In this document: in pieces, positions 6,454 to 59,620 of the stretch
Layout of the letters: every line of letters begins with the position of its first letter
How positions within the stretch are numbered: position 1 is the stretch's first letter
Assembly: GCA_027011045.1 (NCBI GenBank)
Contig: JALVAT010000013.1
Span: 20,364-84,363, forward strand
Origin: Candidatus Micrarchaeota archaeon
GTDB taxonomy: Archaea; Iainarchaeota; Iainarchaeia; JAADDC01
Length of the DNA stretch: 64,000 nt
Reading direction: 5' to 3'
The notes under the pieces: model-generated
Told to the model about the DNA's origin: nothing
Database searches by the model: none
The model's input: only the letters and a program-made list of their open reading frames with translations
Program-made: the position numbers and the translations under genes

Positions 6454-7173
6454 ATGGCAAACATGGAAACCCTTATTGAAATGGCGAAGCGGGAGATACG
6501 GGACGAAACGGTAAAGTCGACCGTATTAGATATCCTGAGGAACCCGAGGATCACCTTTGCAGATGTGGAACCAAAAATTTCCCCAGACGAGGCGCCGGCG
6601 GCTCCAAAGGCACATCATTCCTATCCAGGGGGCCTCATAGATCACACAATAGGCGTTACCATCCTTGCAAAGCACTTTTCCAACGCATTCTCCGAGCTCT
6701 ACGGCTACCAAGTAAGACGGGACTACATTATAGGGGCCGCGCTGCTGCACGACATTTTCAAGTACTACCAGTACGAGTACGACGAGGTTACGGGCGGATT
6801 CAGGCAGAGGGAGGACTGGTATCTGCAGCACGACTTCGCCCTCATAGCAGAGCTCTCGCACAGGCATGCACCAGAGTACCTGATACGTGTGTGCGCCGAA
6901 GCCCACGGTTTTAACGTGTTGGCCACGCCGGAGGGCCAGATTGTCCACCTGGCAGACTCCACGGACGCGAGGTTTGCAGCAAAGATACAGGACATCGTCT
7001 ACAGGGCTTGCGTTGATCTTGAAAGGGAAACTGACGGCGACATCCTCGCAGTAAAGGCGTACTACGCCATAGTGAGACGGCACTCACTATACGAGCTTGC
7101 AAGGATCGCCCAAGAGAAGGGAACAAAGGAACTACGTGCATTCATAAAAAGAGAGCTACTTGGGGGTCAGTAG
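6454..7173 (+). CDS. HD-domain phosphohydrolase
   Basis: H...HD motif (HSYPGGLIDHTIGV ... LLHDIFK); cttttatc TATA about 25 nt upstream of ATG 6454. Confidence 0.65.
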   Translation: MANMETLIEMAKREIRDETVKSTVLDILRNPRITFADVEPKISPDEAPAAPKAHHSYPGGLIDHTIGVTILAKHFSNAFSELYGYQVRRDYIIGAALLHDIFKYYQYEYDEVTGGFRQREDWYLQHDFALIAELSHRHAPEYLIRVCAEAHGFNVLATPEGQIVHLADSTDARFAAKIQDIVYRACVDLERETDGDILAVKAYYAIVRRHSLYELARIAQEKGTKELRAFIKRELLGGQ

Positions 7174-7568
7174 CGGCCCCCAAAGCGCCTACCACGGGAG
7201 GGCATGTCAAAGCGGCGCGGACGCTGGACCTCGCGGTCAGACACGTTGTTGTCCGTGTTCGCCTTGAAGTCCTGGGCATCCACAACCTCTATCTTCCCGT
7301 AACGCCCAACGTTGAGACGCATGTGCCCACCAACAACGGCCACATAGCCGTTCTCTATGCGGACGTAGTCACCAGGCTGGAGCATATCCGCCCTGTCATC
7401 CCATAGTGAGAGCAGAATTGATCCGCTTTGATCGCCAACAAGGTACTCCTTTACCCTGTGGGTGCTACCATCCTTGCGGGAGACGACCTCGCGGTCGTCG
7501 GCCACAGAAACAACCTCGACGGTCACGTCCACGTTGCGGGAGGACGGACCGAGATCAGCAACCTTCAT
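7167..7568 (-). CDS. OB-fold nucleic-acid-binding protein (SSB/RPA-like), RGG-like basic tail
   Basis: 133 aa with an OB-fold-like beta-rich core and C-terminal RGRRFGGRY. Confidence 0.45.
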   Translation of the reverse strand: MKVADLGPSSRNVDVTVEVVSVADDREVVSRKDGSTHRVKEYLVGDQSGSILLSLWDDRADMLQPGDYVRIENGYVAVVGGHMRLNVGRYGKIEVVDAQDFKANTDNNVSDREVQRPRRFDMPSRGRRFGGRY

Positions 7569-7602
7569 TCTTTACACCTCGGTACGTTGCTACCACTGGG
7601 AC

Positions 7603-7612
7603 ATTGGTGTAT
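7603..7612. promoter_or_regulatory. Palindromic TATA box (TTTATATAAA) between divergent OB-fold gene and the MBL / reverse gyrase operon
   Basis: tgtatataaacc; about 45 nt upstream of the minus-strand ATG and about 80 nt upstream of plus-strand ATG 7691. Confidence 0.5.
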
Positions 7613-7690
7613 ATAAACCCATTGCAGTCCCTCTCATTCGTGGCAACGCGTTTCAGGATTCTCGCGGCGGACTCCCTCGGCGTCAGATCC

Positions 7691-8515
7691 ATGGCAACGG
7701 CGGTCGAGCATTCGGGAGAGAAGATTATCATCGATCCAAGTGCAGCACTTGGGCCAAGAAGATACGGGCTGCCGCCCCACGAGCTGGAGGAGCTCGCACT
7801 CCGGCTCGCGCTAAAGAGGATTGACCGGGAACTTCAGGACGCCGATTACGTTATCTTCACGCACTACCACTGGGACCACTACAGGCCGGAGGCAGACCTG
7901 GAGGGAAAGGTTGTATACATGAAGGATCCGGAGAACTACATCAATGCGAGCCAGAGAAAGCGGGCAGCGCCGATAACAAAGCGGGAAGGCCTTGACCTGC
8001 GCATTGCAGATGGGCTGAAGGTAGATGAATTGGATATGGAGTTTTCACCACCCCTGCCGCACGGACCGGAAGGAACAAGGCTTGGATACGTCATCGGGGT
8101 AAGAATAGGGGATCTAGTCTTTACATCGGATGTGGAGGGGCCGGTAAGCGAGGCTGCGACACGGTGGATCATCGAAATGAACCCAAGAACGCTGATACTG
8201 GACGGCCCCCTTACGTACATGCTCGGATACAGATTTTCGCAGGAATCGCTGCAGCGCGCCGTGGAAAACCTCCTGGGGATCGCGGAGAGCACAAACGTGA
8301 CGGAAATTATAGCGGAGCACCATTTAGTCCGGGATATCAACGCCCACAAGAACTTCCCCGTGGGTGAAAGACTCGCTGAAATCGGAGTGGAGTATAGGAA
8401 CGCCGCGGAAGCCCAAGAGCTGGAACCGCTCCTTCTGGAACCTTGGCGCCGTATGCTGTGGAAGGGTGAAAAAGAGGTTGACCCAGATATAGTAAGGAGG
8501 GTGTACGATGCGTGA
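7691..8515 (+). CDS. Metallo-beta-lactamase-fold hydrolase
   Basis: VIFTHYHWDHY (HxHxDH motif) about 60 aa from a KIIIDPSAA strand; stop overlaps the reverse gyrase start (ATGCGTGA). Confidence 0.6.
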   Translation: MATAVEHSGEKIIIDPSAALGPRRYGLPPHELEELALRLALKRIDRELQDADYVIFTHYHWDHYRPEADLEGKVVYMKDPENYINASQRKRAAPITKREGLDLRIADGLKVDELDMEFSPPLPHGPEGTRLGYVIGVRIGDLVFTSDVEGPVSEAATRWIIEMNPRTLILDGPLTYMLGYRFSQESLQRAVENLLGIAESTNVTEIIAEHHLVRDINAHKNFPVGERLAEIGVEYRNAAEAQELEPLLLEPWRRMLWKGEKEVDPDIVRRVYDA

Positions 8516-11500
8516 AAGGGCGCTCTTCACAAAGCTCTGTCCAAACTGCGAGGGGGAAATAAACGATATCCGCCTCTCGCTCAAGAACCCGTGCAGCACC
8601 TGTTTGGAAACAGCGGTCGTAGAGAACACATACGAACAGCTTGTAGAGGCGATTTACCGGGCATTAAAGGAGGGGGACAAGCTAAGGAAGTACCAGATGA
8701 TCCACGACGTAATCCATCACCTCACAGAATTCAACGAATTTTTCGAAAGGGCCGTGGGATCCAGGCTATGGAGCGCGCAGAGGACGTGGGCCAAGCGTGT
8801 GTTCTTGGGGAGGTCCTTCTCCATCGTGGCGCCAACGGGCATTGGAAAGACGGCCTTCGGATCCGTTATGGGGATATACCTAGCGAAGCACGGCGAAAAG
8901 GCCTATTTCATCCAGCCCACGACTACGTTACTCATGCAGACAGCGGAAAGGCTGCGGGACTATGCAAAGAGGGCGGGAGTTGACGTCAGGATCGTGGAGA
9001 TCCACGGCAAGATGAAGAAGGGCGAGAAGGAAGAAGCACAGCGGGCCATTGAAGCAGGGGAATTTGATATCCTCGTAACGACCTCGCAGTACCTCACGCG
9101 AAACTTCGACACCCTCGCAAGGCACAGGTTCGACTTCATCTTTGTCGACGACGTTGACGCATTCCTCCGTGCGTCCAAAAACATAGATCGCGTGCTCCAA
9201 CTCCTGGGATTCACGGAGGAGATAATATCGGCTGCATACGAGCTGATACGCGCAAAGTTCACCCTCCTCTTCCGGAGCAACGACCAGCAGCTAAGAAAAC
9301 GCATCGAAGAGCTGCAGGAGAAGATAGATCGGTTCAAGGAAAACAACAGGGTAGGTCAGCTCATCGTTGCATCCGCCACGGGGCGAGCAAGGGGCATCCG
9401 TGTCAAGCTCTTCCGGGAGCTCCTGGACTTTGAGATCGGGAGCACAAGGGCAAACCTGAGGAACATCATCAACGCGTACACGGAGGAAAGGAACTGGAAG
9501 GAGCAGGTGCTGTCAGCGGTGACGGCGCTGGGCAAGGGCGGGCTCGTGTTCGTCCCGACGGATAGGGGCAGGGAGTTCGCGGAGCAGGTTGCACAGTATC
9601 TGCAGAGTTCTGGAGTAAAAGCAATGCTCGCAACGTCCGAAAACGCAGATCAGGTCCTTAAAGCGCTGGAAGCTGGAGACGTGGACGTAGCGGTAGGTGT
9701 TGCCGCGTACTACGGCGTGCTGGTGCGCGGAATTGACCTGCCCGAGCAGATAAGGTATACCATCTTCGTGGGGGTCCCAAAGTTCAAGTTCTCACTACGC
9801 TTCGACAACGCACCGCCCGGAAGGCTGGCGTATCTCCTGGACGTGGTGGCGGACTACGACGAGGACATTGCGAGGGAGGCGAGATCCCTTGCAAACAGGA
9901 TTAGGAGGAACCCGCGCGACGAAGATGTAGAACGGGCAAAGGAAATCCTGCGGAGGGCCTTTGAGAACAGGGAACTGGTGGAACGCATAAAGCAGAGCAA
10001 GGAAATCGCTGTGGTCGAGGAAAATGGCGAACTAAAGATCCTCATAGCAGACGTACGCACATACATCCAGGCAACGGGAAGAACATCGCGCATGTACGCC
10101 GGGGGAATTACGCCGGGGTTCTCTTTAGTCCTCGTGGACGACGAACGCGTCTTCGATCAGCTTAGAAGGTACATGCGCATAGTACTCGATGAGGAGTTTA
10201 AACCGCTGGAGGAAATAGATCTCGCCGAAATACGGCGCTGGCTAGAGGAGGGCAGAAGAAAGAGGGAAAAGCTGGCGGAAGATCCCGTTAAAACAGTTCT
10301 ATTCATCGTTGAATCGCCAAACAAGGCGAGAACAATTGCACACTTCTTCGGAACACCTTCATCATACCGCATAGGCAACATCCGGGGCTACGAGGTGGCC
10401 ACGGGCAAGTACATCCTTAACATCGTGGCTACCAGGGGGCACATGTTCGACCTAGTCACGGACCGCGGATTCCACGGGGTGCTCGTGGAGGAGGACGCGC
10501 ACTGGTTCGTACCGGTATACACGACGATCAAGCTCTGCCGCCGCTGCGGCGTACAGACGGTGGAGGATAAATGCCCAGTTTGTGGATCGGATGAGTATCT
10601 GGACGACGCAATATGGCGTGTTAACGCTCTGCGCCTCTTTGCCCTTGAAAGCGACTTCGTGATCATTGGAACGGACCCCGATCGAGAGGGAGAGAAAATA
10701 GCCTGGGATACAGCCCTCGCAATAAGCCCCTACGTCCCCACCATTGTCAGGGCGGAGTTCCACGAGGTAACGCGAAGTGCCATTCTGCGGGCCCTGGAGG
10801 AAACGAGAAACATCGACGAAAACATAGTAAACGCCCAGATCGTCCGCAGGGTGGAGGACCGCTGGATTGGATTCGAGCTGTCGCGGAAACTCTGGGAAGC
10901 ATTCGGCATAAAGATCCTGTCTGCGGGGAGAGTACAGACGCCGGTACTTGGATGGATCATAAGGCGCTATGAGGAGCACAAGGACAGCGTACGCATATTC
11001 CTCGACGTGAAAACAGAAACTGGTAGAGTTGTGTTCGAAACGCCGTTCAAGAGTGTCAAGGAGCTTCGATCAGCGGAAATACCAAGCACGTTAGAGGTGC
11101 GCGTGGAAAAAAGGGAGGAAACGGAGCTCGGGGCGCCGGCACCATTCACAACGGACACGATGCTCAGGGAGGCAGGAGAACGGATGGGCATAGGTGCAAA
11201 GGATATCATGCAGCTCGCGCAGGACCTATTCGAAGCGGGTCTCATCACATACCACAGGACCGACTCTACGCACGTGTCCGCCGCAGGGCGCGCCCTCGCA
11301 AGGGAGTACATATCGGAACGCTTCGGAGAGGAGTACTACAGGGGCCGCAGCTGGGGTGAAGAGGGTGCCCACGAATGTATTCGCCCCACAAAGCCCTTGG
11401 ATACGGACACGCTGATCCGCATGGTGCGCGAGGGCGAAATTAACGTTCAGGGGCTCCGAAAGAAGCACCACCGTCTATACTCCATCATATTCGAACGCTT

Positions 11501-12017
11501 TATGGCTTCCCAGATGCGGAATCCCACGGTAGAGAGGGCAGAAGTCGTCTACAGGCTGGGGGAGTTTGAAAAGAGGGAAACAGCAATAACAAGAATCGTG
11601 AAGGACGGGTGGAACCTCGTGAGGCCCGTGCGCACGCGAGAAGTACGGGAAGGGGCCTTCAGGGTCGTGGAGATTCGGAACTTTAAGGCGGCAACGGTCC
11701 CGCTATACACACAGGCAGACGTAGTGGCCCTAATGAAGGAGCGAGGAATAGGAAGACCCAGCACATACGCAACAATCATACAGAAGCTCCTGGATAGGAA
11801 GTACGTGCGCGAATCCCAGCAGAAGAAGCGGCTGTACCCAACCCAGCTTGGAATACGCGTATACAACTTCCTTTCCGAGAACTACGAAGATCTCGTATCG
11901 GAGGAGCGGACGAGGATTCTCGAGGAGACCCTTGACGCCATTGCCGCAGGGGAAAGGGATTATCAGGACGCGCTGCGCGAGATGTACCTCGAAATAAGGG
12001 GGGCCGTAGGTGAGTAG
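8508..12017 (+). CDS. rgy: Reverse gyrase (single-chain helicase-like plus topoisomerase IA fusion)
   Basis: 1169 aa; N-terminal Zn finger (CPNCEGE...CSTC), Walker A APTGIGKT, DEAD-like DDVD, Toprim and topo IA C-terminal half. Confidence 0.9.
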   Translation: MRERALFTKLCPNCEGEINDIRLSLKNPCSTCLETAVVENTYEQLVEAIYRALKEGDKLRKYQMIHDVIHHLTEFNEFFERAVGSRLWSAQRTWAKRVFLGRSFSIVAPTGIGKTAFGSVMGIYLAKHGEKAYFIQPTTTLLMQTAERLRDYAKRAGVDVRIVEIHGKMKKGEKEEAQRAIEAGEFDILVTTSQYLTRNFDTLARHRFDFIFVDDVDAFLRASKNIDRVLQLLGFTEEIISAAYELIRAKFTLLFRSNDQQLRKRIEELQEKIDRFKENNRVGQLIVASATGRARGIRVKLFRELLDFEIGSTRANLRNIINAYTEERNWKEQVLSAVTALGKGGLVFVPTDRGREFAEQVAQYLQSSGVKAMLATSENADQVLKALEAGDVDVAVGVAAYYGVLVRGIDLPEQIRYTIFVGVPKFKFSLRFDNAPPGRLAYLLDVVADYDEDIAREARSLANRIRRNPRDEDVERAKEILRRAFENRELVERIKQSKEIAVVEENGELKILIADVRTYIQATGRTSRMYAGGITPGFSLVLVDDERVFDQLRRYMRIVLDEEFKPLEEIDLAEIRRWLEEGRRKREKLAEDPVKTVLFIVESPNKARTIAHFFGTPSSYRIGNIRGYEVATGKYILNIVATRGHMFDLVTDRGFHGVLVEEDAHWFVPVYTTIKLCRRCGVQTVEDKCPVCGSDEYLDDAIWRVNALRLFALESDFVIIGTDPDREGEKIAWDTALAISPYVPTIVRAEFHEVTRSAILRALEETRNIDENIVNAQIVRRVEDRWIGFELSRKLWEAFGIKILSAGRVQTPVLGWIIRRYEEHKDSVRIFLDVKTETGRVVFETPFKSVKELRSAEIPSTLEVRVEKREETELGAPAPFTTDTMLREAGERMGIGAKDIMQLAQDLFEAGLITYHRTDSTHVSAAGRALAREYISERFGEEYYRGRSWGEEGAHECIRPTKPLDTDTLIRMVREGEINVQGLRKKHHRLYSIIFERFMASQMRNPTVERAEVVYRLGEFEKRETAITRIVKDGWNLVRPVRTREVREGAFRVVEIRNFKAATVPLYTQADVVALMKERGIGRPSTYATIIQKLLDRKYVRESQQKKRLYPTQLGIRVYNFLSENYEDLVSEERTRILEETLDAIAAGERDYQDALREMYLEIRGAVGE

Positions 12018-12549
12018 GCGATACAGCGACTCCGAGTACGGGGAGTTCCTGCGGGCAATAAGGGCGCACCATCCGATACAGAAGAGGTGGGAAGCGCTGA
12101 AGAGCAATTCAGAACGGCTCAGGGAATATCTGGAGGAAGTCAAAAGATACACGCTGCACGAGGGGAACCAAGATATGGCGAAGGCGTCGGGGCTTATGGT
12201 AATCCAACACCTGGAGGAGCTGGCAAGGAATCGCTGGCTACGGGAGCAGCTGAAGGACGCCCTTGGGAGCAGGGCGTTCTGGCGGGTTATGGCCATGGCT
12301 GCCGCGGCGGTGGCGCCCAAGATGGACGAAGATGATAGAATCACCCTGAATACGGCAAGGGCAATACTGGAAACGGAGGGCTGGGAGCACGTGCCGGAGG
12401 CGTGGGATACGCTCTACTTCCTGGCCCCTGCAAACAGGGGAAAACTCCAAGAGTTCCGCCGAGCTCTGCGGAGAAAGCTATGGAAAATCAACGTGGGGGA
12501 GCTCCCAGAACCTGTCCAGAAGCGGCTGCGGGAACTCAAGGAGCTTTGA
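12010..12549 (+). CDS. Hypothetical alpha-helical protein, translationally coupled to reverse gyrase (8-nt overlap, GTG start)
   Basis: Overlap GTGAGTAGG spanning the rgy stop; no recognisable domain. Confidence 0.45.
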   Translation: MSRRYSDSEYGEFLRAIRAHHPIQKRWEALKSNSERLREYLEEVKRYTLHEGNQDMAKASGLMVIQHLEELARNRWLREQLKDALGSRAFWRVMAMAAAAVAPKMDEDDRITLNTARAILETEGWEHVPEAWDTLYFLAPANRGKLQEFRRALRRKLWKINVGELPEPVQKRLRELKEL

Positions 12550-12603: not shown

Positions 12604-12759
12604 ATGGTATCCAAGCGATGCGTTACCTGCGGGAGGGAAACAACGGACTACGTCCAGTTCAAGTGTCCAAACTGCGGCACGGTCATCGTGCGCTGCCAGC
12701 GCTGCCGTGCCAGTGGAAAGGAGTGGATCTGCCCAACCTGCGGCTTCGAGGGTCCATAA
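12604..12759 (+). CDS. Small Zn-ribbon protein (51 aa, two CxxC pairs), the conserved archaeal partner found upstream of aEF-1beta
   Basis: MVSKRCVTCG...FKCPNCG...RCQRC...CPTCG; absent from the ORF track because under 60 aa. Confidence 0.55.
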   Translation: MVSKRCVTCGRETTDYVQFKCPNCGTVIVRCQRCRASGKEWICPTCGFEGP

Positions 12760-12776: not shown

Positions 12777-13040
12777 ATGGGAACTGTTCTTGCTGTCTTC
12801 AAGATCATGCCGGACGATATGGACCACTTTGAGGAGATTAAGGAGGCCATAAAGTCCGCAATCCCCGAAGGGGCTCAGCTCCAGGAAATCCGGGAGGAGC
12901 CCATTGCCTTTGGTCTCAAGGCGCTCAAGGTTGGCGTTACCATGGAGGACACGGGGGGCATCCTGGACAAGGTGGAGGATGCGCTCCGCAACGTGCCCCA
13001 CGTGGAGAGCGTAAACCTGGAAACGACAACCCTCATTTAA
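12777..13040 (+). CDS. Translation elongation factor aEF-1beta
   Basis: About 88 aa, MGTVLAVFKIMPDD...; typical aEF-1beta length and sequence. Confidence 0.75.
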   Translation: MGTVLAVFKIMPDDMDHFEEIKEAIKSAIPEGAQLQEIREEPIAFGLKALKVGVTMEDTGGILDKVEDALRNVPHVESVNLETTTLI

Positions 13041-13528: not shown

Positions 13529-13582
13529 GCTCCACCGTCATTCAAGGTTTTTATGTTGCGTGATGCTTATAAACAGAGCATG

Positions 13583-16147
13583 ATCCACCGGCTCCACCTT
13601 GTGAACTGGAAGAGTCACGCAAAAACGGAAATACGCTTCTCTAAGGGCACCAACGTCATTGTGGGAATCAACGGAGCGGGGAAATCGTCCATTCTCGAGG
13701 CAATCCTCTTCGCGCTATACGGGGAGCTACCCGGAGGGGCCACGTACGAAAAGGTGCTACGGAGGGGAACAACAAGGGATGCAAGGGGCGTTGTGGAGCT
13801 TGAAATGGACGTCGGGGGCAAACACATCGTAATAACGCGTGAGTTCTCGCGGAAGGGGCAAACACGGGCGCGAATAAGGGGGGATGTAAAGACACTCACC
13901 GAGAAACCGTCCCAGGTAACCGAAGAGGTCATAAAGCTCCTGGGAATGGACAGAAAAACCTTTGAAAAGGCCGTTTACGGCAGGCAGGGGGAGATTGCCG
14001 CACTCCTGAACGATAGATCCGAAAGAAAGAGGCTGATAAATCGAATCTTGGGCATAGAAAAACTCCAAGTGCTCCAGACGGCAATAAACTCGGCGATAAC
14101 AAGGCTCAGGAGAATAGCCGGCAGCGCAGATCTTGGCACAATGGAAAGGGACCTGGAGAACGCCAGACAACGGCTAAAAGAAGTGTCCGCTGAGCTTGAG
14201 GGTACGCAACGACTACTGGCAGAGTGGAAGAGCAGGGAAAGGGAACTCGATACTGCGATTGCAAGGACAAGAGAAGAGCTCCAAGAGTTAGAGAAAAGTC
14301 TGGCAGAGGCGCGCTCCGCCCGCCAGGAGCTGGCACGCCTAAAAGGCATGGAGAAAAACCTTGAAGAACGGGCTCTGGAACTCAGGAGAGAAGGAATCAC
14401 ACCAAAACGCCCCGAAGACGTGGAAAAATTGCGCGGTAAGCTAAAGGAGTTGGAAAGAAGGGCAAAACAGATAGATGAGCTCCTCACACTGGAGAAACGC
14501 CTATTAGAACTGGCAAATAAGCGAGTGGAGAAGCCAGACGCCGAATCTGCAAGGAAATCGGTAGAGGAACTCGAAGGGCAACTGCAAAGAGTGAGGGAAG
14601 AGCTCGCGGAGAAAAGGAGGGCACTACAGGAAACGGAGAAGAGGATCCGCGAGCTCGAAGCTGAAGCCGCCGAGCTTGACAGGAGGATTCGCACCCTCAC
14701 GGGCGTCGAGCAAAGGATAAAGGAGCTTGAGAAGAGGGTTGAAGAGCTCGGATCTGTTGAGGAGATTGAAAAGGCACTGCGTGAGCTCTCCGAGGAAATA
14801 TCCGCCGCAGAAACGGAAATAAAGCAGGAAAGCACCTTCGTGAGCGCGCTTCGCTCCGCATCCCAATGCCCTGTATGCGGATCGGCCCTGGACGATGAGA
14901 GGAGAAGGGAACTGCTGGAGGAGCACACGAAAAGAATGGCAAAGCTAAGAGAACGCGTAGAGGAGCTCCGAAGAAAGGTTGCAGAGCTCAAGCGCAGACA
15001 AGCCGAGAGCAAAGGAATACAGGAGGAGTTGCGAAGGCTTTCCGCAAAGATCGGGATCCTTGAAGAGCTTCGGCGTAGAAGGGAGGAGATCAGGGCCAAG
15101 CTGTCCGAAGGGGCCGCCATGAGGGAGAAGCTAAGAAGAACGATCGCCGAGCTCGAGGCCAGGGCACGGGAACTGTCAGAGCAGCTCAGGGAGAAGAGGG
15201 CAGCCCTGGAACAGCTGGAAAAGCAACTACGCGAGTACGAAGAGGTTGAGAAGGCACGCAGGGAGCTGGCAAGCATAGAGGAAAGGCTGAGGATACTTGG
15301 GGAACGTCCCGACCTGGAGGACATTAGAAGACAAATCACGCTGGCGGAAAAGGGCGTAGAGCTGTCAAGAATAGAGGAAAGGCTCGCTCAGATACGCCAG
15401 AAGATCGAGGAGCTGGAGTCTCGGGCACAAAACGTGGAAGAGCTGGAGAACAAGGTCCAAACCACAAGAGATGCACTATCAAAGCTTGTGGCGGAGCGCA
15501 GGGCATTGGAGGCAAAGATTTTGACGGAAGAGAGGCGAGTCAAAAACCTTGAGGAGCTCAAGGCAACCCTTGAAAGAAGAATCGAGGAACTAGAACGCAG
15601 GATCGCCGAAATAACAGATGCAGCAGAGAGAAAGGCAATACTGGAAAACGTGGCGAAGATCGTCTCCGCCGCCGCGGAGCAGGTCAAGGAGAGCAGGCTG
15701 GCGGCGATAAACACGATCTTAAACACGGTATGGGCGACGCTCTACCCCAGGAAGGACATTACGGAGCTTCGCATTGTGCCTGAGAAGAATGACTACAGAA
15801 TATATGCAAAAACCGCGAACGGAGAAACGGTGGATGTAGACTCGTTATCTGGGGGAGAGCGCTTTGACGTGGCCCTTGCCCTGAGGATCGCTGTGGCTGC
15901 TGCGTGGGGGAGGAGCATGGGGCTGCTCGTGCTGGATGAGCCCACCCACAACCTGGACGAAGAGGCGACCGACGCGCTCGCCGAGGTGCTGAGACACCTG
16001 CCCGGGGACAGCTTTGAACAGATCATAATCATAACGCACAACGAGGCCCTCAAGAAGGCAGCAACGGGCAAAATCATCGTCGTAGAAAGGGATAAGGAAA
16101 GGGGCAGGCCGAGCATCGTGCGAGAAGTGCCCGTGACCGCGGAGTAA
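13583..16147 (+). CDS. rad50: Rad50 (SbcC-like) DNA double-strand-break repair ATPase with CxxC zinc hook
   Basis: Walker A GINGAGKSS, long coiled coil, central CPVCG hook, C-terminal LSGGE signature and DEPT D-loop. Confidence 0.8.
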   Translation: MHRLHLVNWKSHAKTEIRFSKGTNVIVGINGAGKSSILEAILFALYGELPGGATYEKVLRRGTTRDARGVVELEMDVGGKHIVITREFSRKGQTRARIRGDVKTLTEKPSQVTEEVIKLLGMDRKTFEKAVYGRQGEIAALLNDRSERKRLINRILGIEKLQVLQTAINSAITRLRRIAGSADLGTMERDLENARQRLKEVSAELEGTQRLLAEWKSRERELDTAIARTREELQELEKSLAEARSARQELARLKGMEKNLEERALELRREGITPKRPEDVEKLRGKLKELERRAKQIDELLTLEKRLLELANKRVEKPDAESARKSVEELEGQLQRVREELAEKRRALQETEKRIRELEAEAAELDRRIRTLTGVEQRIKELEKRVEELGSVEEIEKALRELSEEISAAETEIKQESTFVSALRSASQCPVCGSALDDERRRELLEEHTKRMAKLRERVEELRRKVAELKRRQAESKGIQEELRRLSAKIGILEELRRRREEIRAKLSEGAAMREKLRRTIAELEARARELSEQLREKRAALEQLEKQLREYEEVEKARRELASIEERLRILGERPDLEDIRRQITLAEKGVELSRIEERLAQIRQKIEELESRAQNVEELENKVQTTRDALSKLVAERRALEAKILTEERRVKNLEELKATLERRIEELERRIAEITDAAERKAILENVAKIVSAAAEQVKESRLAAINTILNTVWATLYPRKDITELRIVPEKNDYRIYAKTANGETVDVDSLSGGERFDVALALRIAVAAAWGRSMGLLVLDEPTHNLDEEATDALAEVLRHLPGDSFEQIIIITHNEALKKAATGKIIVVERDKERGRPSIVREVPVTAE

Positions 16148-16154
16148 ATGGTAG

Positions 16155-16227
16155 TAGCCCCGCCGGGATTCGAACCCGGGTCGCGGGATCCAAAGTCCCG
16201 CATGCTTGACCGCTACACCACGGGGCT
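16155..16227 (-). tRNA. tRNA-Gln(TTG): tRNA-Gln (anticodon TTG)
   Basis: Manual fold: acceptor AGCCCCG/CGGGGCU, anticodon stem CGGGA/UCCCG, loop CUUUGGA. Confidence 0.8.
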
Positions 16228-17705: not shown

Positions 17706-17814
17706 CCGGGGGTAGCTCAACCTGGTAGAGCGGCCGGCTGTAGTCTGGCTTGGGCCCAACCTGCAACAACAGGCAGAAACCGGCAGGTTGGGGGTTCAAA
17801 TCCCTCCCCCCGGA
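17706..17814 (+). tRNA. tRNA-Tyr(GTA): tRNA-Tyr (anticodon GTA) with 35-nt intron at the canonical 37/38 position (17744..17778)
   Basis: Acceptor CCGGGGG/CCCCCGG, anticodon stem GCCGG/CCGGC interrupted by a 35-nt insert after CUGUAG. Confidence 0.8.

Positions 17815-56576: not shown

Positions 56577-59620
<3,044 letters not shown>

What the first reader, a model, noticed from the sequence alone, without database searches (positions are those of the whole stretch)
7167..12549. Reverse gyrase embedded in a translationally coupled three-gene operon (MBL-fold hydrolase, rgy, unknown 179-aa protein) driven from a palindromic bidirectional TATATA box
Seen directly: the MBL-fold ORF stop overlaps the rgy start (ATGCGTGA), and the rgy stop overlaps a GTG start of a 179-aa all-alpha ORF (GTGAGTAGG). 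A perfect TTTATATAAA box at about 7603 lies between this operon and the divergent OB-fold gene. Established knowledge: the MBL fold includes DNA/RNA nucleases (beta-CASP, SNM1/Artemis-like, RNase J), and reverse gyrase has proposed DNA-protection and repair roles at high temperature. Inference: the tight coupling suggests the MBL-fold protein and the 179-aa protein are functional partners of reverse gyrase (for example a damage-processing nuclease and an adaptor or regulator). No reverse-gyrase accessory proteins are established, so a conserved partnership would be new.
Basis: partly seen in the sequence, partly recalled or inferred. Interest (0 to 1): 0.6.

Follow-up and report, generated by a model that had tools for sequence, protein, structure and literature searches.

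The report
Lineage-specific hydrolase–reverse gyrase–orphan gene operon
A normal reverse gyrase gene is packed into a three-gene operon with a pan-archaeal metallo-hydrolase and a small orphan helical-repeat protein, but this arrangement occurs in only one uncultured hot-vent archaeal lineage, so it does not look like a general reverse-gyrase partner system.

Summary
The two stop/start overlaps are real: ATGCGTGA at 8508-8515 and GTGAGTAG at 12010-12017. The sequence is GTGTATATAAACC, with TATATAAA at 7610-7617.

rgy is a canonical full-length reverse gyrase. The upstream gene (GTG 7640 to 8515, 291 aa) belongs to the large PRK04286-type MBL family. That family is found across Archaea, including mesophiles. 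Its model resembles phosphodiesterase/nuclease-type MBLs most closely, but it has no beta-CASP domain. The 179-aa gene is real (dN/dS 0.15) and models as an ARM/HEAT-like alpha-solenoid. It is an orphan, with about 8 relatives.

MBL-rgy adjacency holds in 11 of 11 genome-collection rgy loci of the window's own clade, and in the other clade contigs fetched. The clade's MAGs are labelled Iainarchaeum or Micrarchaeota. There the whole ~10-kb block is syntenic. Adjacency was found in 0 of 69 other rgy loci, 1 of 80 metagenomic MBL loci, and none of 5 individually inspected loci. The orphan is missing from the deeper clade branch.

Tight gene packing is the norm in this window. The most likely reading is a lineage-specific co-expression unit, not a conserved partnership. 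Reverse gyrase partners are already known in Sulfolobus (SSB, PolY). The divergent neighbour here is an SSB-like gene.

The parts
7167..7568 (-). Divergent 133-aa Ssb-like OB-fold gene (Sulfolobus-SSB type) with a basic RG-rich C-terminal tail
   Evidence: PF21473 scores 56.6 bits against GA 24. The best NCBIfam match is PRK06461.1-3, single-stranded DNA-binding protein, E 9e-36, below its cut-off. The gene is conserved in the same position in all clade loci. dN/dS is 0.02.
7575..7580 (-). Shine-Dalgarno-like GAGGTG for the OB gene, 6 nt upstream of its ATG (7568-7566)
   Evidence: Read directly from the sequence. CACCTC is conserved in 11 of 13 relatives' intergenic regions.
7610..7617 (.). 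TATA box TATATAAA (TTTATATA on the minus strand), the only AT-rich element in the 71-nt divergent intergenic region
   Evidence: It is the only match to either 8-mer in the 64-kb window. Its centre lies about 26 nt from the MBL GTG at 7640, and about 26 nt from a point 7 nt upstream of the OB Shine-Dalgarno. A TATA box (mostly TTTATAAAA) sits at the same relative position in all 13 relatives. Its use as a promoter, and use in both directions, is inferred.
7640..8515 (+). 291-aa MBL-fold metallo-hydrolase of the PRK04286-type pan-archaeal family; GTG start, probably on a leaderless mRNA
8496..8501 (+). Shine-Dalgarno-like GGAGGG inside the MBL 3' end, 6 nt upstream of the rgy ATG
   Evidence: Read from the sequence. 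GGAGGG followed by ATGnnTGA is conserved in L001, L003, L005, L006, L013, L014, L015 and L049, and GGAGGG followed by ATGA in L009.
8508..12017 (+). Reverse gyrase, 1169 aa, single polypeptide, canonical
   Evidence: TIGR01054 scores 1364.9 bits over model positions 3-1170 of 1172. Pfam finds zf_Rg, DEAD, Toprim and Topoisom_bac. dN/dS is 0.056.
12010..12549 (+). 179-aa orphan alpha-solenoid (ARM/HEAT-like) protein; its GTG start overlaps the rgy stop
12604..12759 (+). 51-aa four-cysteine-pair Zn-ribbon ORF, 54 nt downstream of the 179-aa gene and directly upstream of aEF-1beta (12777-13040); possibly part of the same transcript
   Evidence: The translation is. tblastn finds it in every clade locus that extends that far. 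In L009, L017, L018 and L058 it directly follows rgy. aEF-1beta is PF00736.

Best explanation
This is a lineage-specific co-transcription unit in a very compact genome of an uncultured hydrothermal archaeal clade. The clade's MAGs are mostly labelled Ca. Iainarchaeum, Diapherotrites or Micrarchaeota.

One TATA box (7610-7617) most likely drives a leaderless mRNA that starts at or near GTG 7640. The mRNA encodes three proteins:
1. The clade's version of a pan-archaeal, uncharacterised MBL-fold di-metal hydrolase. By fold it is most probably a phosphodiesterase acting on a nucleotide or nucleic-acid substrate.
2. A canonical reverse gyrase, translated by re-initiation at ATGCGTGA with help from an embedded GGAGGG.
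3. In one sub-clade only, a fast-evolving orphan alpha-solenoid protein, translated by re-initiation at GTGAGTAG.

The same near-symmetric TATA box probably also serves the divergent SSB-like gene.

The coupling gives co-expression. However, the MBL protein and the orphan are not general reverse-gyrase accessory factors, and the adjacency is best explained by inherited synteny and genome compaction.

Shown: the gene identities, overlaps, motif conservation, phyletic and synteny pattern, folds and purifying selection. Inferred: promoter use, leaderless start, co-transcription, the phosphodiesterase chemistry and the absence of a dedicated partnership.
For: - Overlaps and Shine-Dalgarno motifs are read directly from the sequence and are conserved in the sub-clade.
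- TATA position is conserved in 13 relatives, about 26-28 nt from the GTG start.
- The MBL family has 1841 homologues across Archaea, including mesophiles. There is one copy in the window.
- On the rgy side, MBL is upstream in 11 of 11 genome-collection clade loci. The clade contigs fetched through MBL or U179 homologues show the same order.
- MBL is upstream in 0 of 69 other rgy loci, 60 of which have at least 1.2 kb of upstream sequence.
- On the MBL side, 1 of 80 metagenomic loci has rgy, and that one belongs to the clade. Sixty-three of the 80 have at least 600 nt downstream.
- Archaeoglobus, Thermoprotei, Altiarchaeales and Thermoproteota MBL loci lack rgy.
- The whole block HD / OB / MBL / rgy / (U179) / Zn-ribbon / aEF-1beta / Mut7-C / Rad50-like is syntenic throughout the clade, so adjacency is not specific to the MBL-rgy pair.
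- U179 is absent in L009, L017, L018 and L058.
- About 57% of same-strand neighbours in the window are 20 nt apart or closer.
- Other lineages show different rgy neighbours, such as KaiC-family ATPase and CN-hydrolase-like genes.
Against: - MBL-rgy adjacency survives down to 39% MBL identity and 58% rgy identity.
- Synonymous sites are saturated between the window and L001 (dS about 2), so the pair has stayed together for a long time.
- The ATGnnTGA-plus-GGAGGG junction is itself conserved.
- The local neighbourhood is rich in DNA-related genes (SSB-like, HD, Mut7-C nuclease, Rad50-like).
- The MBL fold sits on the nuclease/phosphodiesterase side of the superfamily.
- An alpha-solenoid coupled to the rgy stop codon is what a binding adaptor would look like.
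- The rgy-side scan used two peptide patterns (LCPNCEGE, WSAQRTWA). It therefore sampled TACK, Asgard and DPANN-type rgy but not Thermococcales, Methanococcales or bacteria.
Confidence: 0.7

Rival explanations
1. This is a genuine clade-specific DNA-maintenance module. The MBL phosphodiesterase trims damaged or nicked DNA ends. Reverse gyrase binds and renatures the lesion. The alpha-solenoid tethers or regulates them. The SSB-like protein, made from the same TATA box, stimulates reverse gyrase as Sulfolobus SSB does.
For: - Translational coupling and Shine-Dalgarno motifs are conserved.
- The pair stays together down to 39% MBL identity.
- The MBL fold is closest to the phosphodiesterase, RNase Z and CPSF73-core group.
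- The solenoid fold is typical of binding scaffolds.
- An SSB-reverse gyrase interaction is known in Sulfolobus (PMC2715243; PMC8185306).
- The SSB-like gene is divergent from the operon in every clade locus.
Against: - The MBL family is present in mesophiles that need no reverse gyrase.
- It has heterogeneous contexts elsewhere.
- No adjacency is seen outside the clade.
- Whole-block synteny that includes translation genes makes the adjacency uninformative.
- The solenoid is dispensable in the sister sub-clade.
- There is no interaction or expression data.
Confidence: 0.17
2. Only the 179-aa alpha-solenoid is tied to reverse gyrase, as a recently evolved sub-clade-specific regulator or adaptor. 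The MBL gene is merely a housekeeping gene that shares the promoter.
For: - The start codon overlaps or abuts the rgy stop in all sub-clade members.
- The gene is under purifying selection, dN/dS 0.15.
- The fold is a confident ARM/HEAT-like solenoid.
- The family is found only immediately downstream of rgy.
Against: - The family has about 8 members and is only 20-47% identical within it.
- It is absent from L009, L017, L018 and L058, whose rgy is otherwise orthologous.
- The position could simply mark where a new gene was inserted, between rgy and the Zn-ribbon/aEF-1beta pair.
- No interaction test was possible.
Confidence: 0.1
3. One or both flanking ORFs are not real genes, so the apparent operon is an artefact of ORF calling in a GC-rich compact genome.
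For: The 179-aa ORF has no Pfam hit, only a noise-level NCBIfam hit and no meaningful PDB sequence match. It has almost no homologues.
Against: - dN/dS is 0.15 for the 179-aa ORF and 0.09 for the MBL gene against L173.
- Both AF2 models are confident.
- The MBL catalytic motifs are conserved.
- Homologues of both are conserved at the protein level across relatives.
Confidence: 0.02

Closest known systems
Reverse gyrase (TIGR01054; helicase-like domain fused to topoisomerase IA)
   Same: It is full-length and a single polypeptide. It has the N-terminal zinc finger, a helicase-like domain with APTGIGKT and DDVD, a Toprim domain with a second zinc ribbon, and a Topo IA domain with the ITYHRTDS tyrosine motif. 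It scores well above the curated cut-off.
   Different: Nothing in the protein differs. Only its gene context differs, with an MBL gene upstream and an orphan downstream in this clade.
PRK04286-type archaeal MBL-fold hydrolases (NCBIfam NF003287-NF003290, named 'hypothetical protein'; from memory this corresponds to UPF0282/COG2248, not verified here)
   Same: Homology runs the full length (E 6e-60 over profile positions 5-290 of 308). All MBL metal-ligand motifs and about 37 invariant columns are shared with 51 homologues. It is a single-domain protein of about 290 aa.
   Different: It scores below the curated cut-offs of all four narrow NCBIfam sub-models (203 bits against 286 at best). Elsewhere the family is not next to rgy. 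No member has a known substrate, as far as the libraries and a paper search show.
Phosphodiesterase/nuclease branch of the MBL superfamily (RNase Z/ELAC, PhnP, the MBL core of CPSF73 and RNase J, PDE tw9814)
   Different: Sequence identity is only 11-20%. There is no beta-CASP insertion. No RNase Z exosite was identified. The C-terminal helical extension (residues about 235-291) is specific to this family.
Sulfolobus SSB-reverse gyrase (and PolY/Dpo4) functional interaction
   Same: An Ssb-like single-OB protein is encoded right beside rgy, divergently and probably from the same TATA box. In Sulfolobus, SSB binds and stimulates reverse gyrase (PMC2715243; PMC8185306).
   Different: No interaction was tested here. 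In the 69 non-clade rgy loci no OB homologue was found nearby. The C-terminal tail here is basic.
ARM/HEAT alpha-solenoid repeat proteins
   Different: It belongs to no sequence family. It is very small at 179 aa. The similarity is generic to the fold class and does not point to a function.

Membership tests
Reverse gyrase (TIGR01054) | Whole-protein score above the curated equivalog cut-off with end-to-end coverage | tested here: met
   The score is 1364.9 bits against a cut-off of 471.7, over residues 4-1164 and model positions 3-1170 of 1172.
Reverse gyrase (TIGR01054) | Fusion of an N-terminal Zn-finger and SF2 helicase-like domain to Toprim and topoisomerase IA domains in one polypeptide | tested here: met
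   Pfam finds PF17915, PF00270/PF04851, PF01751 and PF01131 in that order. The motifs APTGIGKT, DDVD and ITYHRTDS are present in the translation and invariant in A4.
Reverse gyrase (TIGR01054) | ATP-dependent positive supercoiling activity | not testable with these tools
   This needs a biochemical assay.
Metallo-beta-lactamase superfamily (PF00753) | Pfam gathering score, plus the HxHxDH, His, Asp and His metal-ligand motifs on an alpha-beta/beta-alpha sandwich | tested here: met
PRK04286-type archaeal MBL hydrolases (NCBIfam NF003287-NF003290) | Score above the curated cut-off of one of the equivalog sub-models | tested here: not met
   The best is NF003287 at 203.2 bits against a cut-off of 286. 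The others score 172, 135 and 97 against 526, 526 and 409. The protein is a full-length homologue of the broad family but belongs to none of the four narrow sub-models.
beta-CASP nucleases (CPSF73, RNase J, SNM1/Artemis) | A beta-CASP domain of roughly 150 residues or more (figure from memory) inserted between MBL motifs 4 and 5 | tested here: not met
Glyoxalase II / lactonase-type MBLs | Closest structural and sequence similarity to hydroxyacylglutathione hydrolases or AHL lactonases | tested here: not met
Ssb-like OB fold (PF21473), for the divergent gene | Pfam gathering score over the OB domain | tested here: met
   The score is 56.6 bits against 24, over residues 7-95. The NCBIfam SSB equivalog models fall below their cut-offs.
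   Adjacency holds in 11 of 11 own-clade loci but in 0 of 69 other rgy loci. One of 80 MBL loci has rgy. Five individually inspected MBL loci lack rgy. Thermococcales, Methanococcales and bacteria were not sampled.
   No multimer prediction or experiment was available.
Archaeal single-TATA bidirectional promoter | Transcription start sites about 26 nt from the TATA centre on both strands | not testable with these tools
   The geometry fits. The centre at 7613.5 lies 26.5 nt from GTG 7640, and 26 nt from position 7587, which is 7 nt upstream of the OB Shine-Dalgarno. TATA position is conserved. No TSS data exist.

The most novel reading that the evidence does not exclude
In this uncultured hydrothermal, DPANN-labelled clade, reverse gyrase may work as part of a dedicated module. 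Its parts would be a pan-archaeal MBL phosphodiesterase recruited as a damage-processing nuclease, a newly evolved alpha-solenoid adaptor bound to reverse gyrase, and an SSB-like protein co-regulated from the same bidirectional TATA box. That would be the first operon-encoded reverse-gyrase accessory system. It would also give a first functional handle on the uncharacterised PRK04286/UPF0282-type family.
Probability: 0.15. Interest if true: 0.55.

Novelty: new member of a known kind. Interest (0 to 1): 0.25.

Why it matters
Reverse gyrase is the hallmark enzyme of hyperthermophiles, and its cellular role is still debated, so a genuine operon-encoded partner would be valuable. The evidence here points the other way. 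The operon is confined to one lineage. The upstream hydrolase is a housekeeping-type pan-archaeal protein that also occurs in mesophiles. The downstream gene is a sub-clade orphan.

Three modest points remain:
- A conserved example of a probably leaderless, GTG-initiated, translationally coupled operon fired from a single TATA box shared with an SSB-like gene.
- A confident model that places the uncharacterised PRK04286-type family on the phosphodiesterase side of the MBL superfamily.
- A small orphan alpha-solenoid found only downstream of rgy, which could be tested cheaply for binding.

Tried and rejected
- **Sequence searches with the 179-aa protein.** Pfam gave nothing. NCBIfam gave one weak IS607 TnpB hit (E 0.0039, 16 bits), treated as noise. 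The only PDB hit with a low E-value is a designed repeat protein with no stretch passing on its own (7rdr), so it was discarded. Exhaustive HMMER over 1.84 billion representatives found one cluster.
- **A relocated copy of the 179-aa gene in L009.** I tested the 176-aa ORF between HD and OB. hhalign probability was 0.1%, so this was rejected.
- **beta-CASP nuclease identity for the MBL protein.** Rejected on length and domain content.
- **An internal promoter for rgy.** The only AT-rich stretch upstream is ATATAGTAA at 8486-8494. It is 14-22 nt from the ATG, which is too close, and it is not conserved in relatives.
- **A recurrent neighbour of the MBL family as a functional clue.** The contexts are heterogeneous. 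The largest clusters were acylphosphatase-like (12 of 80), a tRNA-synthetase-like gene (10) and a macro-domain-like gene (10). These were named from their sequences by eye, not by a family search.
- **Structure library search.** The afdb50 library was unavailable.
- **Literature searches.** 'UPF0282/COG2248' found only a 2007 list of archaea-specific proteins. 'reverse gyrase' with 'metallo-beta-lactamase' found nothing relevant.
- **The sigma-70 promoter/terminator scanner.** Not used, because it does not apply to archaeal promoters.
Full report
**Observation**

The ORF table and the raw sequence confirm the two junctions.
- The MBL-fold ORF stops at TGA 8513-8515 and rgy starts at ATG 8508, giving ATGCGTGA.
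- rgy stops at TAG 12015-12017 and a 179-aa ORF starts at GTG 12010, giving GTGAGTAG.

- The sequence is GTGTATATAAACC.
- TATATAAA lies at 7610-7617, which reads TTTATATA on the minus strand.
- It is the only match to either 8-mer in the 64-kb window.
- The 10-mer TTTATATAAA does not occur, and the position is 7 nt off.

The mechanical MBL ORF begins at 7406, but the real start is almost certainly GTG 7640.
- The conserved N-terminal strand, with invariant G14, R16 and S17, lies upstream of the first ATG.
- No other start codon lies between the TATA box and 7640.
- Relatives start with GTG at the same place.

**Gene identities**

*rgy (8508-12017).* This is a canonical single-chain reverse gyrase.
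- TIGR01054 scores 1364.9 bits against a cut-off of 471.7, end to end.
- Pfam finds zf_Rg, DEAD, Toprim and Topoisom_bac.

*The upstream protein (291 aa).* This is an MBL-superfamily member (PF00753 above its gathering score) and a full-length homologue of the NCBIfam PRK04286 'hypothetical protein' models.
- It scores below the cut-off of each narrow sub-model.
- It has 1841 homologues in the large protein collection. Source names include Methanothrix, Thermoplasmata, Altiarchaeota, Syntropharchaeia, Archaeoglobus, Geoglobus and Thermoprotei. The family is therefore pan-archaeal and not restricted to hyperthermophiles.
- All metal-ligand motifs (H75-x-H77-x-D79-H80, H141, D164, H227/H228) and several basic residues are invariant across 52 sequences.
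- The AlphaFold model is very confident (pLDDT 95.8).
- It has no beta-CASP domain. No close relative has a solved structure.

*The 179-aa protein.*
- It has no meaningful family or PDB sequence match.
- It has only 2, 8 and 1 relatives in three searches, one of them exhaustive.
- It is nevertheless a real gene. dN/dS against the closest relative is 0.15, compared with 0.09 for MBL and 0.056 for rgy.
- Its model is confident (pLDDT 89.5).

*Neighbours.*
- The divergent gene at 7167-7568(-) is an Ssb-like single-OB protein.
- Upstream lies an HD-domain gene.
- Downstream lie a 51-aa Zn-ribbon, aEF-1beta, a Mut7-C nuclease gene on the minus strand, and a Rad50-like ATPase.

**Conservation, starting from rgy**

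I scanned one genome per species with an rgy alignment. This returned 80 loci.

HMM and tblastn searches of their six-frame ORFs gave a clear split.
- The MBL gene lies directly upstream of rgy in all 11 loci of the window's own clade. These have rgy at least 56% identical and are labelled Ca. Iainarchaeum, Ca. Micrarchaeota, 'Methanobacteriota SZUA-1452' or uncultured archaeon.
- Clade contigs fetched through MBL or U179 homologues show the same order.
- It is upstream in none of the 69 other loci. These come from Thermoproteota, Bathyarchaeia, Asgard, Nitrososphaerota, Methanomethylicia and others, with rgy 37-47% identical. Sixty of them have at least 1.2 kb of upstream sequence.

Within the clade the entire block HD+ / OB- / MBL+ / rgy+ / (U179+) / Zn-ribbon+ / aEF-1beta+ / Mut7-C- / Rad50-like+ is syntenic. 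The MBL-rgy adjacency is therefore no better conserved than the adjacency of rgy to translation genes.

The 179-aa family is present only in one sub-clade: the window, L173, L001, L003, L005, L006, L013, L014, L015 and L049. In L009, L017, L018 and L058, rgy is followed after about 40-60 nt by the Zn-ribbon gene. In L017, L018 and L058 the tblastn matches leave about 30-70 nt between MBL and rgy rather than meeting at an overlap.

Other lineages have their own recurrent rgy neighbours. Among the 69 non-clade loci:

| Neighbour | Position relative to rgy | Loci |
|---|---|---|
| KaiC-family ATPase | upstream, mostly same strand | about 22 |
| CN-hydrolase-like ORF | downstream | 20 |
| CDC48 | upstream | 14 |
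| aIF5A | downstream | 10 |

**Conservation, starting from the MBL gene**

- Of 80 metagenomic loci retrieved with the MBL alignment, only one carries rgy. It is 59% identical and belongs to the clade. Sixty-three of the 80 have at least 600 nt downstream.
- MBL homologues in Archaeoglobus (L008), Thermoprotei (L011, L012), Altiarchaeales (L176) and Thermoproteota (L177) are not near rgy.
- The Geoglobus locus (L175) is too short downstream to judge.
- The neighbours of the family are heterogeneous.

**Promoter and coupling**

- The 71-nt OB-MBL intergenic region has one AT-rich element, the TATA box.
- Its centre (7613.5) lies 26.5 nt from GTG 7640. That predicts a leaderless or nearly leaderless MBL mRNA.
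- On the other strand, the centre lies about 26 nt from position 7587. That is 7 nt upstream of the GAGGTG Shine-Dalgarno (7580-7575) of the OB gene.
- All 13 relatives have a TATA box in the same relative position, mostly TTTATAAAA. Most also keep CACCTC and the GTG start.
- The MBL-rgy junction is conserved as GGAGGG-N6-ATGnnTGA in the sub-clade.
- These features support a single operon fired from a TATA box shared with the SSB-like gene. There are no transcript data, so this remains an inference.
- Tight packing carries little specific weight here. By a crude ORF call, 12 of 37 same-strand neighbour pairs in the window can overlap and 9 more lie within 20 nt.

**Comparison with the literature**

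- Reverse gyrase partners are already documented in Sulfolobus. SSB interacts with and stimulates reverse gyrase. PolY/Dpo4 binds it and is inhibited by it (PMC2715243; PMC8185306).
- The premise that none are established is therefore inaccurate.
- The most literature-relevant neighbour in this locus is the SSB-like gene, not the MBL gene.
- I found no paper linking reverse gyrase to an MBL-fold protein.
- Reverse gyrase in thermophilic DPANN lineages is already reported.

**Verdict**

The anatomy is real and neatly conserved, but only in one lineage with global local synteny. The best explanation (confidence about 0.7) is a lineage-specific co-expression unit in a compact genome.
- A pan-archaeal, probably phosphodiesterase-type MBL hydrolase and a canonical reverse gyrase share a leaderless transcript.
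- A sub-clade-specific orphan alpha-solenoid gene lies between rgy and the Zn-ribbon/aEF-1beta pair.

A genuine clade-specific functional module is not excluded (about 0.15-0.2). It could be tested by multimer prediction, metatranscriptome mapping and simple biochemistry. The general claim of conserved reverse-gyrase accessory proteins is not supported.

Noticed in passing
L033:3675-4451 (example); about 22 of 69 non-clade rgy loci among L019-L092: In Desulfurococcales and other Thermoproteota-type loci, a KaiC-family ATPase (PF06745, E 9e-90) lies directly upstream of rgy, on the same strand in 20 loci. This is a more widespread rgy neighbour than the MBL gene.
   Followed up: partly
L074:13981-14868, L062:4689-5078, L087:6691-8889(-), L062:5189-5590(-): There are other recurrent lineage-specific rgy neighbours. 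They are a CN-hydrolase-like ORF downstream (20 loci), an unknown 130-aa ORF downstream (17), CDC48 upstream on the opposite strand (14), and aIF5A downstream on the opposite strand (10).
   Followed up: partly
window 12604-12759 and 12777-13040: A 51-aa Zn-ribbon ORF with four CxxC pairs sits immediately upstream of aEF-1beta. It is conserved in every clade locus that extends that far. Only 54 nt separate it from the 179-aa gene, so the rgy operon may read through into these translation genes.
   Followed up: partly
window 56607-59598: Rfam finds a complete archaeal 23S rRNA but no 16S rRNA anywhere in the 64-kb window. This suggests unlinked rRNA genes.
   Followed up: no
window 17706-17814: A tRNA match spans 109 nt, longer than a plain tRNA. 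It probably contains an intron.
   Followed up: no
window 13553-16147: An 864-aa Rad50-like SMC ATPase with a zinc-hook motif has no adjacent Mre11 gene. It is followed at once by another ORF at 16148, and a minus-strand tRNA lies at 16155-16227. It starts 24 nt from the divergent Mut7-C gene.
   Followed up: no
window 7167-7173 and 13037-13040: Convergent genes overlap at their 3' ends: HD with OB by 7 nt, and aEF-1beta with Mut7-C by 4 nt. This illustrates how compact the genome is.
   Followed up: partly
L013-L018, L029, L049, L058, L066, L078 (record titles): MAGs of the window's clade carry conflicting taxonomic labels: Ca. Iainarchaeum, Ca. Micrarchaeota, Methanobacteriota and uncultured archaeon. 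A protein homologue is labelled Diapherotrites. The lineage's placement is unsettled.
   Followed up: no
L093-L172 (MBL loci), e.g. L138:1077-1604 and L113:2056-2340(-): Some PRK04286-type MBL genes are followed by a macro-domain-like ORF (10 of 80 loci) or an acylphosphatase-like ORF (12 of 80). I named these from their sequences by eye, not by a family search. This is a weak hint toward nucleotide or ADP-ribose-phosphate metabolism for the family.
   Followed up: no
window 1-64000: TATATAAA/TTTATATA at 7610-7617 is the only canonical 8-bp TATA match in the whole 64-kb window. Either most promoters of this organism use weaker boxes, or the SSB/MBL-rgy promoter is unusually strong.
   Followed up: no
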